Positions 1-27,000 of a stretch of 64,000 nucleotides of DNA are shown here, piece by piece. The first letter of the stretch is position 1. Every line of letters starts with the position of its first letter. The stretch comes from Leucoraja ocellata (lineage: Eukaryota), in NCBI GenBank assembly GCA_036785375.1, contig JAWMAR010000063.1:6200001-6264000 (forward strand). Reading direction: 5' to 3'. The position numbers were made by a program.

Positions 1-3000
1 AATTCTCTGCTAGTTAAATACAAATGCATCTTGTAACGTCGCAACCGGAGTACTGGATTCAACAGATTGAAGCCATTCCTGGCCAAAATCTTGCTCTAGT
101 ATCTTTGTTCCTGGCCACTGAGTGGAGACCAAGGATCATAGATCAGAGATCTCCGCTCTGGTATCTTTGGTGGAGACTGCATCACGTGATTTGAATCATG
201 TGACTTGGGTAAAATGGCTGCGCACGGAGCGAGGTTGTTGCTGCTGCTCTTCTGCTCCGTCCTGGAAACATTATCATGGCAAACAGTCCGCAATAGCACG
301 CAGCCGCCTCCCGTGGTCATTTGGCACGGCATGGGTGAGTACAAGGAAACAAAATATCAAATATATTGACAATTGAATATATTCAGGAAGTGATTGATCT
401 GATATTTCTGTCCCTCTTTGGTAACAAAATCGTTGATGCTTTATACTGATGTGCAACTCGTAAACAGTTAATTCAGAATTATTTAAAACGTCAATTGGAA
501 CCATTCAGTGTTTGGTGTAGCATTATTCTCCTTGATATGGTCTTGTAGTCTATGGTTATTTGTGATATTTGAAACGTAAATGCATGCATTTTTAGCCTTG
601 TATAAAACTAACTTCCTCGCATCGTCAACAATTCCCATTGCACTGTGTTCAAGCTTTGAGATCACGAAATATAGAAATGAAAGTTGTTAAGGCGCTCCCG
701 GGAAAATGATTCTAAATACGCATTTATTAAAGTTATGCAAATATTTTGTGCCAGAACTTGGAAACATACCGTTGTCTAGTGTTCTACCCTTACTTTTACA
801 TTCTAATGTAACTCATACAGATTTTTAAAAATCAATTGATCACTTTTATGAAAGAAGAAAATTAGTATGCTATTGTTAAGATTTTATATTGTGGTGATTA
901 CTATATTTTTATTATCCTGTACAATTTACTCACTTTAGGTGACAGTTGTTGTAAAGGACGTACCTTGCATTTCATCAAACTGGTGAAAGAAGCAATCCCA
1001 GGAATATATGTCTTGTCTTTGCAAATTGGAAACAGTATTAAGGAGGTGCGTGTGAGAAAAAATGGAATGATAACAACTGAGCCAACTTTTTTAATGTAAT
1101 TTTTTGTGCTCTTAATAATCATGTAACTGTTTTATTTTTTTTAAAAGGTTTGCACAAAAAATGATACTGAACAGAGCTGACATGGATTTATGAAATGAAA
1201 ACCATGTTTGACTATTCTATTGGAATAGTCTATTCTTTTAGGTACATCAAACTAAGTGAAAATGGGGGATGGGGTGTATTTAAATGTTATGCCTTTGACT
1301 CCTTTTTAAAGCATACCTTAAAATCTGCCCTTTAAACTACAGTTTAGGTTGTCCACTCTAATGACTACCTGTATCTTGTCAAATGTTGTTTGGTAACACA
1401 CCTGTGAAGTATTCTGAAACAGTTCATTACGTTAAAGGCACTACATAAGTAAATGATTTGTTGTACTGAATATTGTGGTTATTAGTTGTAATGAAGACCG
1501 CATATTTCTTTAGAAAATAAAACAAAGCGTTGGAAGTACACAATGGATCAGGCAGTATCTGCGGAGGGAATAGACAGATAATGTTTTGAGTCACGACCCT
1601 TCTTCAGACGATCTAAGGTTTTTTTGTGTCTATTTCTTTTAAAGTTGTTTAAAGACCCCTTTTAGCAAGTGGCCCCTAGTGATTTGGTGGCTGTAATGTA
1701 TAATGAGATGGATAAGATTTGGGCTAATTCTTTACCCTACTTTCCTAACCCATTGAATAATGTGACTTTTACATTTTGTTTAATCAATATCATTTGAAAG
1801 TAGATACTGAGTGCATGTAGGTTAAGACTTTTGTTCTCAGACTTAAAAAAAAAACCCAAAACAAATAATGGTGCTAAAAAGTTGAATGTTGCCTGAAATT
1901 ATCCCATAACGCACATTCACTTCTCTTGGTTTAATTTTAGGATAGGGAATAATGCTGAAGATGCTTTCAGGCTGAATATTTGGCAGATAAAACAAGATTT
2001 GTATATCCTCTTATACAGTTCCGTTTTATATTCAATTTCTGCAAATCATGGCTCCACACTGACCATCCCCGACACCCACCAGTTCCACCACCACCACCAC
2101 CACCAAATATGACTACCAATAAGTGTTTTCTTCATGGTTGCTTTGGGTAGTTTTATCGATAGCCCTGTTTTTATTAATCCATATAGTTATTTTTGCAGGT
2201 TTGTGATTGGAGGTAAATGTGGCAAAGACTAATGCTTTTGAATCTTTCATTCATTTTTGCACAAATCTGAGGCATGTCATGGGTGGGTAATGAAAAACAT
2301 AAGCATTCGATTATAAATTCAATTAGTTGGGCTACAACGTAAACCAAGAGTCTGCAACCAGAGAGCAGCTAATGCTATAGTCCAAGGAGTGAAGCTGTGA
2401 ACATATCTATGTGGTTCACCACATAGGTTCATAGTATTTTATTAAGATAAAAATGAAGTGGATGTTGCAAGATTAACACAATTTAGACATACTGAATTAT
2501 TATGTTAATTATTAAATGATTAAGAATTAAACTGCCAAGTTTCAAAAATCTAAAACACATTCTAGATGTATTGTTAATTATACAGTTCCTCAAAGCTGAT
2601 GTGTATTAGGAATCTTTCTTTTTAGGACATTAAGAACAGTTACTTCATGAATGTAAATGATCAAGTAGAGTTGGTGTGTAATATATTATCCAAGGATAGG
2701 AAGCTGAAGAATGGATACAATGCAATGGGCTTCTCTCAAGGTGGCCAGTTTATGTAAGTGTGACCAATAGGACCATTGCATTGGGGAAAAAAATGTCATT
2801 TGTAGAACGTATTCACATTCCAAAGTATTTTGCAGCCAATTAGAACAGTTTTGTAAAATATAGTCAAATAAGGGGTATTTTATAGTTGGCTGCTCAGTTG
2901 GCAGATGGAATTCTCTCATCAATGATTCTGTATCCATTACAGAAGAGCTGTAGCACAGAGGTGCCCTTCTCCACCTATGATTAATCTTATCACATTTGGA

Positions 3001-24000: not shown

Positions 24001-27000
24001 CTGAACTATGAAGCATTATCTAATTTGATGACCTTGAACTGGGGGGGGGGGGGGTGCGGGCAATGTATAACATTAGACCTTTTTCATGAGGACTGTAGTA
24101 CTTTTGAACACTTAAAATTATGCAAACAGTTTTACAAACTTTGATTTTATCATTCATTGTTGATTTTTTTAAAACCTGGTGGTTTTGCAGAAACATCAGA
24201 GTAAATGCATTTTTGTTTTGCCTAAAGGATCGATTAGGATTGAAAGTGATGGACAATGCAAAGAAACTGGAATTTCTAACAGTGGATGGGGATCATCTTC
24301 AGTTCTCAGAAGAATGGTTCATTACCAACATAATTCCTTATCTGAAGTGATTCTTTTACAAAGCTATTAATTTTCTGCTAATTGAATTGTAAAGCACTGG
24401 GCTACTATCTGTGTTTAAATTACAACGCTTTGCTTATAACAAAACCTACTGCAGTTTTCGGAAGCAGAGCAAGCACTTTGGCTCCCTCAAGAATGAGGGC
24501 TTATGATTGTCAATTCTGCTTGGCAGGCATGAATTTTCAGTCTGTTCATTTTAGAAGCTGAAAATCTCAGTGATGAGTGCAGCCAAAGTGAGTCTGGAAA
24601 TTCATCTGCATTTTCCTTTCACATCTAAAGAAAATCTATGGCTATCTAACGGCAAGTTCTTCTTGGTCATCTAATGTTTATATATATAATGGTGTGACAG
24701 CGCCCTGACTGCAGTCTGTCCGTCTTTTCGTCCTGTTAGTTGTATGTTTTTGGTTTTATTTTGTAGATGTGTATATGTGGGAGAGTGGGGGAAACGTTTT
24801 AATCTCTTCCCTGGACGGGGACCCAACCGTTTCCCTGTCGGGTCTCCATTGGGCCTAAAATCATGGAGCCGGCGGCCTCCTACCGGAACCGACCCGAGGG
24901 CTCCAGTCGTGGAGCTGGCCGACTTCAGAGGTGGAGAGCTGTGGTGGCGCGTGGCTGCGACCCGACTTCGGAGGCTGCAGGCCCGGTGAACGATAACATC
25001 GGGAGCTTGCAGGTCCCTGGTGGGAGACCACCTTTCGGAGCTCCCGCAACTTCACCCGCCCGAATAGCGGGGTCAAAACGACCCGGAGCGGGGCCCTAAC
25101 ATGGGAAGAAGAATACAGAACAGGGAAGAGACTAGAGAGACAAGACTTTTGCCTTCCATCACAGAGGTGTTTGGAGACTCACTGCAATGGATGTTTATGT
25201 AAATTGTGTTAATTGTGTGTCTTGGTTTTTTTTTAATGTTATGACTGCAGGAACAAAATTTCGTACAAACCAAGTTTGTATGACAATAGATGGTATTCTA
25301 ATTCTTCTAAAACGCATGCACATATACAATGGATAAGAACAAATGTTCAAACAGCTGCCAAATGTTTTTAAACATACCAAGAAATGAGACTCTTCAATGT
25401 TGTAATTCATCACTGAATTACTACGGTTTAAGTTAGCATTTCAAAGCTAGTCTTGTGCCACGGGGTGTAGATTAGTGTACTATAATCAAAGCAAAACTTG
25501 GCAGTCAGAATTTCTGTACCTTGTTATCCCTCAGCTACTGCCTCACCTGTTTAATTTTATAAACTATTGAAGCAAGATGTTTCTAAAGCTAAACATAAAT
25601 GTGAAATAAGTAGATGTGATTTAGAATGCTTTTTCATAATTGAGGTCTTCAAGAATATGAAAGTTTTTCATACTTCGCACTGAACAAAAGCATTTACTTC
25701 ACTCAAGTACAATGGTGAGCTGCTTTATTGAATCATTTACTACATGTTCCATTGCAGAGGATGGATAAATTATGTACATGATCTACGCTAACCTGGAAGT
25801 GAATGAAGATTAATTATATTGGTGTAAACAGCGCAAAGATTAAAAGCTGATTTAATGAATTAAGCAATTCCACAAATTCCTTTGTTCTTGTTAATAATTC
25901 ATATTTTTCTTCTCCAAATAGTGCTTCAGTGGTGGGTTTAACTAGACATCATCATTGCTTTTGTCAGTTCCTCAATCGGCACAGAGTATCAGATACTTCT
26001 GAATCTTGACCTACTTTAAATTTAGACCCAATGCAATTCAGCAAATTAAAATTTCTTTAGGAGTGTTTTTGGTGCAGGGTGAAAATACACCATTGCCAGA
26101 TCTAGAAGGGATTCAATTTCATCAAAATAATTCTTTACACATTAACCCCAACCAGATCCCTAAATCTGAGGAAAAACTAGAACACCAACAAGACAATAGT
26201 GATGTATGTTCTGAATTCCTGTTTTATAGTTTCTTCTTACAAATAAAAATGAATTCATTATATTGATGGCGCCAATGATCGCTTACAGCGAGGATCATTG
26301 ACATTGGTTAGCATTTTGCTGAACAAAGCTTGCCATAAAAGGATGTAGTTGATTAATGCTGTGTCGTTGAGACTGCACACATTCTTATTCAAGTTGATTA
26401 GCTCTACCAAATAGGAACCCAATTGATGTACAATATTAATAGCTTTTGATTAAGCAATTATTGTTAATATAATTTCTCATAACAGGTCTACTTATAAAGA
26501 AGCTCATAATTTCAATTCCTCCACCCCAGGTTTCACACCCATGGACAGTGATCTATAACGTTGAACAAATGAAGAAAACAACACAAATTGTAACAATTTA
26601 GAAGCGAGTTGGCAAATTTTATTTTGCAGTTTAATTCCTGATTTACTTAAGATAGCATAGTAACCATAAGTAGCAAGAACTGAGTTTGATCCCTCTTGTA
26701 CATAACCGAAAAATTTGCAAATTGATACTGGAACATTGATATCAGGTTTAGAAAATACAATACAGTAATTTATCACAGCAATAGAGGCTGTTAACATCAT
26801 TCTGCGGGTAATATCCTGCATGATGGAGGGACAATAAATTGTTAAGAGTACAAGAATTGCTCTGAGCAAGTTTACTTTAAATGTAAAAAGTCAAATGCAT
26901 TTCTCAAACTAATGGCAATCAGTTCAGTTTAATTTAACTTAATCTTAATTAAACTGCTACAATAGTTAATAATTTACAGTAGCAGCTTTGCAATCCAACT

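What the first reader, a model, noticed from the sequence alone, without database searches (positions are those of the whole stretch)
214..24350. Intact tandem duplication of PPT1 with both copies under purifying selection
Seen: two complete 9-exon genes with identical intron phases, unrelated introns and an intact Ser-Asp-His triad in both. Exon 6 differs at 7 nucleotides, all synonymous, which indicates constraint on both copies. Established: PPT1 (CLN1, the lysosomal depalmitoylase) is single-copy in human and lies tail-to-tail with CAP1. Inference: copy B, next to CAP1, is the ortholog, and copy A is an old, retained lineage-specific paralog.
Basis: partly seen in the sequence, partly recalled or inferred. 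Interest (0 to 1): 0.68.

Follow-up and report, generated by a model that had tools for sequence, protein, structure and literature searches.

The report
Ancient PPT1 tandem duplicate in skate
The little skate carries two intact, side-by-side copies of the lysosomal enzyme gene PPT1, a duplication shared by sharks and rays, and the extra copy has rewritten a short motif that is otherwise the same from worms to mammals.

Summary
Window 214-6930 (copy A) and 10447-24350 (copy B) are two head-to-tail, 9-exon PPT1 genes with identical intron phases, 16 of 16 GT-AG introns, unalignable introns and an intact Ser/Asp/His triad. Exon 6 differs at 7 bases, all synonymous. Pairwise dN/dS is 0.14 at dS 0.84.

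The window is from little skate (Leucoraja erinacea). Copy A equals the public model 'PPT1-like isoform X1'. A-type proteins form a strongly supported clade holding both rays and sharks (98/96 and 100/97). The duplication therefore predates the shark-ray split, and it probably followed the chimaera split (77/87; alternative p-AU 0.059).

Within the A clade, changes avoid conserved columns (13 of 132 against 72 of 149, p 6e-13). That shows constraint on A itself. Copy B is the slower, ancestral-like copy and faces a CAP gene tail-to-tail.

New here: all 9 A-type rows replace the motif N-P-x-S-M/L-G, kept in 103 of 103 other PPT1s. Transcription of copy A could not be tested. The duplicate is annotated in databases, but I found no paper on it. 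Interest is moderate.

The parts
214..334 (+). Copy A (PPT1-like) exon 1: ATG, hydrophobic N-terminus, ends in phase 1
   Evidence: peptide is an exact substring of P0001 at position 1
939..1045 (+). Copy A exon 2: holds the remodelled loop (K-G-R-T-L-H in place of N-P-L-S-M-G) and a one-residue deletion
2626..2753 (+). Copy A exon 3: nucleophile Ser in G-F-S-Q-G
   Evidence: Pfam 44.1 bits; PDB alignment
2943..3013 (+). Copy A exon 4
4060..4162 (+). Copy A exon 5
   Evidence: blastn pair
4536..4626 (+). Copy A exon 6: protein identical to B, 7 synonymous differences
4918..5013 (+). Copy A exon 7: catalytic Asp; one codon shorter than in B
5844..5915 (+). Copy A exon 8
6808..6930 (+). Copy A exon 9: catalytic His and TGA stop
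6931..10446 (.). 3516-bp spacer between the stop of A and the ATG of B. It holds dispersed repeats and the first AATAAA/ATTAAA signals 1139-1465 bases past the A stop
10151..10800 (.). CpG-island-like stretch over copy B exon 1, a likely own promoter for B
10447..10567 (+). Copy B (ancestral-like PPT1) exon 1
12747..12856 (+). Copy B exon 2: keeps the family motif N-P-L-S-M-G
14025..14152 (+). Copy B exon 3: nucleophile Ser
   Evidence: Pfam 43.1 bits; exact substring of P0009
14248..14318 (+). Copy B exon 4
15759..15861 (+). Copy B exon 5
18983..19073 (+). Copy B exon 6
21463..21561 (+). Copy B exon 7: catalytic Asp
23098..23169 (+). Copy B exon 8
24228..24350 (+). Copy B exon 9: catalytic His and TGA stop
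30976..31149 (-). ORF holding a CAP gene exon, CAP_C profile positions 84-132. It is the CAP exon found nearest to copy B, 6.6 kb from its stop
   Evidence: Pfam E 6.6e-18; best PDB matches are 1k8f_A (ADENYLYL CYCLASE-ASSOCIATED PROTEIN, E 5.2e-19) and 6fm2_B (Adenylyl cyclase-associated protein 1, E 5.6e-19)
34172..34345 (-). ORF holding a CAP gene exon, CAP_C profile positions 15-57
   Evidence: Pfam E 3.3e-11
44236..44502 (-). ORF holding a CAP gene exon, CAP_N profile positions 52-100
   Evidence: Pfam E 4e-14

Best explanation
Shown: the window, from little skate, carries a head-to-tail tandem pair of PPT1 genes 3.5 kb apart. The pair lies tail-to-tail with a CAP (adenylyl cyclase-associated protein) gene. 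The duplication arose in an ancestor of sharks and rays, most likely after the chimaera lineage split off. Both copies have since been kept as intact 9-exon genes with the full catalytic triad.

Shown: copy B is the slower, ancestral-like gene. Copy A changes about twice as fast in the skate lineage and about 1.2 times as fast across the shark-ray split. It is still clearly constrained.

Inferred: one unequal crossover copied the whole gene together with its promoter. B continues the ancestral job of the lysosomal depalmitoylating thioesterase. A also encodes an active Ser-hydrolase that enters the secretory or lysosomal route. Its retention is tied to a shared derived change: the loop just after the Cys-Cys pair was rewritten from N-P-x-S-M-G to [K/E]-x-x-T-L-[H/K] with a one-residue deletion, a few residues downstream of the H-G-M-G strand. 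That change most likely alters substrate or partner preference rather than abolishing catalysis. Expression subfunctionalisation may add to this.
For: Gene anatomy. Family and triad: exon-wise Pfam and exon-wise PDB alignments, with triad residue names from PMC3500292 (passages).

Organism and public model: P0001, 'PPT1-like isoform X1 [Leucoraja erinacea]', contains all 9 copy A exon peptides as exact substrings in order.

Age: the A-type clade of 8 rows (3 ray, 5 shark) has support 98/96 in a 25-row tree and 100/97 in a 32-row tree. The chondrichthyan clade against bony vertebrates has 100/99. Both types occur in Chiloscyllium punctatum and in Stegostoma tigrinum, on contigs of the same length. 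All 21 elasmobranch rows form one clade with the chimaera outside at 77/87.

Constraint: summed over exons, 91.5 synonymous differences on 180.8 sites against 79.5 nonsynonymous on 710.2 sites, giving dS 0.84, dN 0.12 and ratio 0.14. Within the A clade, 13 of 132 invariant columns vary against 72 of 149 variable ones, p 6e-13.

Asymmetry: unique changes in A against B are 29 to 14 (chimaera outgroup), 28 to 11 (coelacanth) and 20 to 17 (gar). At 132 outgroup-invariant columns A is changed at 11 and B at 2. Ray-shark p-distance is 0.195 for A and 0.161 for B.

Motif: 9 of 9 A-type rows carry the rewritten loop, and 103 of 103 other anchored rows, a nematode included, keep N-P-x-S-[M/L]-G.

No sign of gene conversion: per-exon synonymous difference runs 0.23-0.63, and the copies group by type, not by species.
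Against: Transcription and splicing of copy A were not tested. No RNA data are on hand, and the exon 2 search found no transcript-like record.

No branch-wise codon model could be run, because no coding DNA of other elasmobranchs is available. My rough per-branch ratios of about 0.19 for A and 0.10 for B are hand estimates that assume dS is split equally between the copies.

The gar outgroup shows no rate asymmetry (20 to 17).

B-type rows are not resolved as one clade, and the chimaera's place is only moderately supported. A duplication before the chimaera split is not rejected (p-AU 0.059).

The functional meaning of the loop change is inference. I could not measure its distance to the active site, and its nearness to the oxyanion-hole residue rests on recall.

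Copy A's promoter lies mostly off the window, and its 5' end is only weakly CpG-enriched.
Confidence: 0.85

Rival explanations
1. The duplication is older than the elasmobranch stem. It happened before chimaeras split off, and chimaeras later lost the A copy.
For: The tree that holds B-type plus chimaera together is only 5.33 log-likelihood units worse and is not rejected (p-AU 0.0586). The base of the chondrichthyan clade is a polytomy.
Against: The best tree puts the chimaera outside all 21 elasmobranch rows (77/87). Only one Callorhinchus cluster (P0048) is among the 120 listed hits, and it carries the ancestral motif.
Confidence: 0.2
2. Copy A is biochemically equivalent to B. It is retained only through divided expression (tissue or stage) or dosage, and the loop change is neutral drift at a tolerant site.
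For: The triad, the six family cysteines and 121 of 132 invariant columns are kept in A. Within A-type proteins the loop varies, apart from T-L. B has its own CpG-island-like promoter.
Against: The same positions are N-P-x-S-[M/L]-G in 103 of 103 other proteins, from nematode to mammal, so the site is not tolerant elsewhere. T-L is fixed in 9 of 9 A-type rows, and 5 of the 11 changes that copy A shows at invariant columns (2 of them shared with copy B) fall in this loop.
Confidence: 0.35
3. Copy A is an unconstrained duplicate on its way to becoming a pseudogene, or it is not expressed.
For: A evolves faster than B. A deeply conserved motif is lost. There is no transcript evidence here.
Against: A has an open 303-codon frame, 8 of 8 GT-AG introns and an intact triad. 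Intact A-type proteins are present in 8 species spanning sharks and rays. Changes within the A clade avoid conserved columns (p 6e-13).
Confidence: 0.03
4. The two copies are an assembly artefact, with two haplotypes laid side by side, or they are kept alike by recent gene conversion.
For: None beyond the tandem layout.
Against: dS is 0.84, protein identity is 78%, and intron lengths differ (5.8 kb against 13.0 kb in total) with no alignable intron pair. The same two types occur in other species and group by type.
Confidence: 0.01

Closest known systems
Mammalian PPT1 (CLN1 enzyme; solved structures bovine 1EH5/1EI9/1EXW and human 3GRO)
   Same: Same Pfam family. The exon peptides align end to end with the solved chains, and the Ser/Asp/His triad and G-F-S-Q-G elbow are kept in both copies. 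The proteins are of similar length, 303 and 305 aa.
   Different: One search lists one named cluster for most species, but a few other lineages also carry '-like' or homeolog records. Copy A lacks the N-P-x-S-M-G motif that the solved proteins and 103 of 103 other relatives keep.
RefSeq 'palmitoyl-protein thioesterase 1-like' models of sharks and rays (P0001 Leucoraja, P0002 Hypanus, P0003 Mobula, P0007 Heterodontus, P0019 Chiloscyllium, P0020 Stegostoma, P0022 Carcharodon, P0023 Scyliorhinus)
   Same: Copy A is this gene. P0001 equals my exon model, and the eight species form one clade.
   Different: The '-like' label is used inconsistently. Amblyraja P0009, Pristis P0018 and Heptranchias P0010 are also labelled '-like' but are B-type by tree and motif. 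I found no paper that describes the two types.
PPT2
   Same: Same Pfam family and fold class; also a lysosomal thioesterase.
   Different: PPT2 is only 26% identical to PPT1 (PMC3500292, passages). None of the five PPT1 exon searches against PDB returned a PPT2 chain at the thresholds used. Copy A sits inside the PPT1 clade, so it is not PPT2.
Other lineage-specific PPT1 extra copies seen by name only (Xenopus laevis L homeolog P0121, Conger conger '-like' P0111, Carassius carassius '-like' P0140)
   Same: More than one PPT1 record in a species (names).
   Different: I did not analyse these. By recall they stem from polyploidy or the teleost genome duplication, not from an old tandem event. 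P0121 carries N-P-F-S-M-G.

Membership tests
PPT1 (Pfam Palm_thioest PF02089) | Sequence match to the family profile | tested here: met
   Tested exon by exon. Six of the eight exons submitted per copy match in profile order (exons 2, 3, 4, 6, 7, 9). Exons 3 and 6 of A, and 3, 6 and 7 of B, each exceed the 26.8-bit cut-off on their own. Exon 5 was not submitted to Pfam. Exons 1, 5 and 8 are supported by the exact match to P0001 and by the alignment. No joined model was scored.
PPT1 (Pfam Palm_thioest PF02089) | Catalytic triad Ser115/Asp233/His289 and the G-x-S-x-G elbow | tested here: met
   Both copies keep all three residues at the aligned positions of 1eh5 and 3gro. Residue names are from PMC3500292 (passages).
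PPT1 (Pfam Palm_thioest PF02089) | Closer to PPT1 than to PPT2 | tested here: met
   Only PPT1 chains were returned by the five PPT1 exon searches against PDB. Both copies lie inside the vertebrate PPT1 clade.
PPT1 (Pfam Palm_thioest PF02089) | Family-wide motif N-P-x-S-[M/L]-G after the Cys-Cys pair (my own criterion, from 103 of 103 non-A-type rows) | tested here: not met
   Copy B meets it. Copy A and all 9 A-type rows do not, and carry [K/E]-x-x-T-L-[H/K] instead. This lowers 'A is a typical PPT1'. It does not lower 'A is a PPT1-family hydrolase'.
PPT1 (Pfam Palm_thioest PF02089) | Signal peptide and N-glycans for lysosomal targeting | tested here: inconclusive
   Both copies have a hydrophobic N-terminus. 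P0001 has two N-x-S/T sequons, and the B-type skate protein P0009 has two. No signal-peptide predictor was run. The mammalian sites N197 and N232 are not sequons in the skate proteins: one search lists sequons only at N27 and N210 of P0001 (copy A) and at N28 and N211 of the B-type skate protein P0009.
PPT1 (Pfam Palm_thioest PF02089) | Thioesterase activity on palmitoylated substrates | not testable with these tools
   Needs an enzyme assay.
Retained tandem gene duplicate | Two complete copies, same strand, adjacent, with no other gene between them | tested here: met
   The copies are 3516 bp apart on the + strand. The spacer holds only repeats.
Retained tandem gene duplicate | Purifying selection on each copy | tested here: met
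   Pairwise ratio 0.14. Within-clade avoidance of conserved columns is seen for A (p 6e-13) and for B (p 1e-17). Both types are intact across sharks and rays. Codon branch models were not run.
Retained tandem gene duplicate | Both copies transcribed and spliced | not testable with these tools
   No RNA data are available. The only hint is that the public model is named 'isoform X1'.
CAP1 neighbour (conserved synteny with human CAP1-PPT1) | A CAP gene on the opposite strand, with its 3' end facing the 3' end of PPT1 | tested here: met
CAP_N is at 44236-44502 and CAP_C at 34172-34345 and 30976-31149, all on the minus strand and in N-to-C order toward copy B. The best PDB matches are 1k8f_A (ADENYLYL CYCLASE-ASSOCIATED PROTEIN, E 5.2e-19) and 6fm2_B (Adenylyl cyclase-associated protein 1, E 5.6e-19). 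CAP1 against CAP2 was not discriminated. The last CAP exon was not located.

The most novel reading that the evidence does not exclude
A-type PPT1 is an elasmobranch-specific, neofunctionalised lysosomal or secreted thioesterase. Rewriting a loop that is otherwise fixed from nematodes to mammals, beside the active-site strand, gave it a different substrate or partner range. That is why it has been kept alongside the ancestral enzyme since before sharks and rays diverged.
Probability: 0.3. Interest if true: 0.55.

Novelty: new member of a known kind. Interest (0 to 1): 0.36.

Why it matters
PPT1 is the gene behind infantile neuronal ceroid lipofuscinosis (CLN1) and is usually a single, slowly evolving gene. 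Sharks and rays offer a natural experiment: a second copy kept for a very long time, with the catalytic machinery intact and one deeply conserved loop replaced. Comparing the two enzymes could show what that loop does. This bears on reading human missense variants near it and on PPT1 substrate choice. The case is also a clean example of asymmetric divergence after tandem duplication. It is not a new kind of system, and the genes are already in public annotation.

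Tried and rejected
Tried without result:
I replaced them with single ORFs.
Sent again as a 40-residue contiguous stretch, it found only P0001 and P0003.
- Of 60 ORFs downstream of copy B sent to Pfam, 3 gave CAP domains above cut-off. The rest gave nothing, or weak hits below cut-off.
- Rfam gave 0 matches at gathering score. Tandem Repeats Finder gave 2 small arrays.
- Look-ups of the bovine PPT1 structure paper by a recalled DOI and a recalled PMC id failed. The review PMC10940682 (passages) says nothing on the PPT1 oxyanion hole.

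Considered and rejected: pseudogene, haplotype artefact, gene conversion, PPT2 identity, and a whole-genome-duplication origin (the copies are 3.5 kb apart in tandem).

Not done:
- No search, fold or family scan used a joined (spliced) model of either copy.
- No structure prediction was run, because the tools return no coordinates with which to place the loop.
- The search of protein representatives was not used, because at 50% clustering it cannot separate A from B.

Full report
WHAT IS THERE

The window has no N, 39% G+C and CpG observed/expected of 0.37. A translated self-comparison gave eight collinear exon-like pairs on the + strand. A DNA comparison of 1-9000 against 9001-26000 gave nine, at 71-88.5% identity. 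The remaining matches are a G-rich simple repeat and dispersed repeats, so none of the eight intron pairs aligns. Alignment with flanks and a list of AG/GT candidates fixed the boundaries.

- Copy A spans 214-6930: nine exons, 912 nt with stop, 303 aa, and 5.8 kb of introns.
- Copy B spans 10447-24350: nine exons, 918 nt, 305 aa, and 13.0 kb of introns.
- Exon start phases are 0,1,0,2,1,2,0,0,0 in both copies, and 16 of 16 introns are GT-AG.
- The two genes are 3516 bp apart, head to tail.

FAMILY AND ACTIVE SITE, EXON BY EXON

I searched the model exon by exon. The joined (spliced) protein of either copy was never assembled, searched or folded.

Six of the eight exons submitted per copy match Pfam Palm_thioest in profile order. 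Exon 3, exon 7 and exon 9 peptides align only to PPT1 chains in the PDB (bovine 1eh5, human 3gro). Ser, Asp and His are kept in both copies at the positions that correspond to Ser115, Asp233 and His289. That triad is named in PMC3500292 (passages read). The family cysteines are also kept (alignment). Their pairing into disulfides is my recall.

Over 297 whole codons, with the four split codons left out, the copies are 77.8% identical in protein. There are 91.5 synonymous differences on 180.8 sites and 79.5 nonsynonymous on 710.2 sites. This gives dS 0.84, dN 0.12 and a ratio of 0.14.

Exon 6 is identical in protein, with 6 synonymous differences in whole codons. A seventh lies in the split His codon at its first base. 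By hand, six hits all falling on the 16 of 90 synonymous sites has a chance of about 3e-5. The exon was picked after the fact, though, and a pairwise count cannot say which copy is constrained.

WHOSE GENOME, AND IS IT ALREADY ANNOTATED

A search with exon 3 of copy A found 45 proteins. The top hit is P0001, 'palmitoyl-protein thioesterase 1-like isoform X1 [Leucoraja erinacea]', 303 aa. All nine copy A exon peptides are exact substrings of P0001, in order, with one-residue gaps at the split codons. The window is therefore little skate, and my model equals the public one.

Copy B is closest to P0009 of the thorny skate: three of nine exon peptides are exact and the rest are near.

AGE OF THE DUPLICATION

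- In a 25-row tree of named proteins, copy A falls in a clade of 8 rows with support 98/96. The clade holds rays (Leucoraja, Hypanus, Mobula) and sharks (Heterodontus, Carcharodon, Scyliorhinus, Chiloscyllium, Stegostoma).
- A family profile of 15 proteins of other species, with P0001 left out, found 4062 proteins at E <= 1e-30. Of these 120 were listed, among them one chimaera cluster, coelacanth, gar, bichir and tetrapods.
- In the 32-row tree the chondrichthyan clade has 100/99 and the A clade 100/97. The B-type groups and the chimaera form an unresolved base.
- The best tree has all 21 elasmobranch rows together with the chimaera outside (77/87). Forcing B-type plus chimaera together costs 5.33 log-likelihood units, p-AU 0.059, which is not rejected.
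- Chiloscyllium punctatum and Stegostoma tigrinum each have both types, on contigs of one length.

The event therefore predates the shark-ray split and probably followed the chimaera split. By recall, those splits lie roughly 270-300 and over 400 million years ago. Copies group by type, not by species, and per-exon synonymous difference is even at 0.23-0.63. This argues against gene conversion.

CONSTRAINT ON EACH COPY

Each copy B exon peptide was added as its own fragment row to an alignment of public proteins. Unique changes in A against B are:

- 29 to 14 with the chimaera as outgroup (chi-square 5.23)
- 28 to 11 with coelacanth (7.41)
- 20 to 17 with gar (0.24)
- 17 to 8 with a consensus outgroup (3.24)

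At 132 columns invariant in 11 outgroup rows, A is changed at 11. B is changed at 2 of the 129 columns it covers.

Within the A clade alone (6 full-length rows), 13 of 132 invariant columns vary against 72 of 149 variable ones (Fisher p 6e-13). For six matched B rows the figures are 6 of 132 against 71 of 149. Ray-shark p-distance is 0.195 for A (8 pairs) and 0.161 for B (24 pairs).

Both lineages are under purifying selection, and A somewhat less so. Splitting dN by the 29:14 ratio and dS evenly gives rough ratios of 0.19 for A and 0.10 for B. This is a hand estimate, not a model fit.

WHAT IS DIFFERENT ABOUT COPY A

Five of the eleven changes at invariant columns fall in one loop of exon 2, just after the Cys-Cys pair. 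I examined 122 named proteins, leaving out 20 ids: the unnamed records and my own two translations. Of the 122, 10 lack the anchor pattern. All 103 non-A-type rows with the anchor read N-P-x-S-[M/L]-G: 102 with M and one with L, a nematode among them. All 9 A-type rows read [K/E]-x-x-T-L-[H/K], followed by a one-residue deletion.

Only three columns are fixed differently between all A rows and at least 90% of B rows: S to T and M to L in this loop, and F to Y in exon 3. The loop lies a few residues after the H-G-M-G strand. That this strand supplies an oxyanion-hole amide is my recall, and I could not confirm it. The idea that the loop change alters specificity is inference.

SURROUNDINGS

- Copy B exon 1 sits in a CpG-island-like stretch (10151-10800). 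Copy A's 5' end is only weakly enriched, and its promoter is cut by the window start.
- Downstream of B, on the minus strand, are CAP_C exons at 30976-31149 and 34172-34345 and a CAP_N exon at 44236-44502. The best PDB matches are 1k8f_A (ADENYLYL CYCLASE-ASSOCIATED PROTEIN, E 5.2e-19) and 6fm2_B (Adenylyl cyclase-associated protein 1, E 5.6e-19).
- The tail-to-tail layout with a CAP gene is thus confirmed. CAP1 against CAP2 was not separated, and the last CAP exon was not found.
- Nothing else was recognised among the 60 ORFs tested. Rfam gave no match.

COMPARISON WITH WHAT IS KNOWN, AND NOVELTY

Both genes are members of the PPT1 family and not PPT2, which is only 26% identical (PMC3500292). 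Copy A belongs to the set that RefSeq labels 'PPT1-like' in sharks and rays. That label is also put on some B-type genes.

Five literature searches found no paper on a PPT1 duplicate in cartilaginous fishes (I saw listings only).

The gene pair is in databases. What this work adds is the recognition of two old types, their dating, the direct evidence of constraint on A, and the rewritten loop.

VERDICT

The finding is real and correctly read by the first stage. It is of moderate interest: a new member of a known kind, with a testable hint of functional change.

Noticed in passing
window 24651-25250: A CpG-island-like, G+C-rich stretch starts only about 300 bp after the copy B stop codon. It has open frames on both strands that translate to Arg/Gly/Pro/Ser-rich strings with no Pfam match. 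It could be an orphan CpG island, part of the 3' UTR, or a promoter of something unannotated.
   Followed up: partly
window 40957-41900: A second CpG-island-like stretch lies inside the span of the CAP gene, between its CAP_N exon and its proline-rich ORF at 37962-38246. It holds a 282-residue + strand open frame that looks non-coding (Arg/Gly/Leu/Pro-rich, no Pfam match). It may be an internal or alternative promoter.
   Followed up: partly
window 62801-63700: A third CpG-island-like stretch lies near the window end. ORFs on both strands there gave no Pfam match. It may be the promoter of the CAP gene or of the next gene.
   Followed up: partly
window 16089-16462, 18042-18511, 19936-20142, 32130-32735, 50755-51107, 59790-60253, 63539-63778: A dispersed repeat family of about 200-470 bp, with copies 67-94% alike on both strands. 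Three copies sit in introns 5 and 6 of copy B and account for part of its longer introns. The family was not classified.
   Followed up: no
public records P0009, P0010, P0018 against P0001, P0002, P0007: The RefSeq label 'PPT1-like' is applied to both paralog types in different species, so the names do not track orthology. The tree and the exon 2 motif separate the types cleanly.
   Followed up: yes
window 14153-14247 and 2754-2942: Intron 3 is very short in both copies, 95 bp in B and 189 bp in A. The other introns run from 291 bp to 3.1 kb.
   Followed up: no
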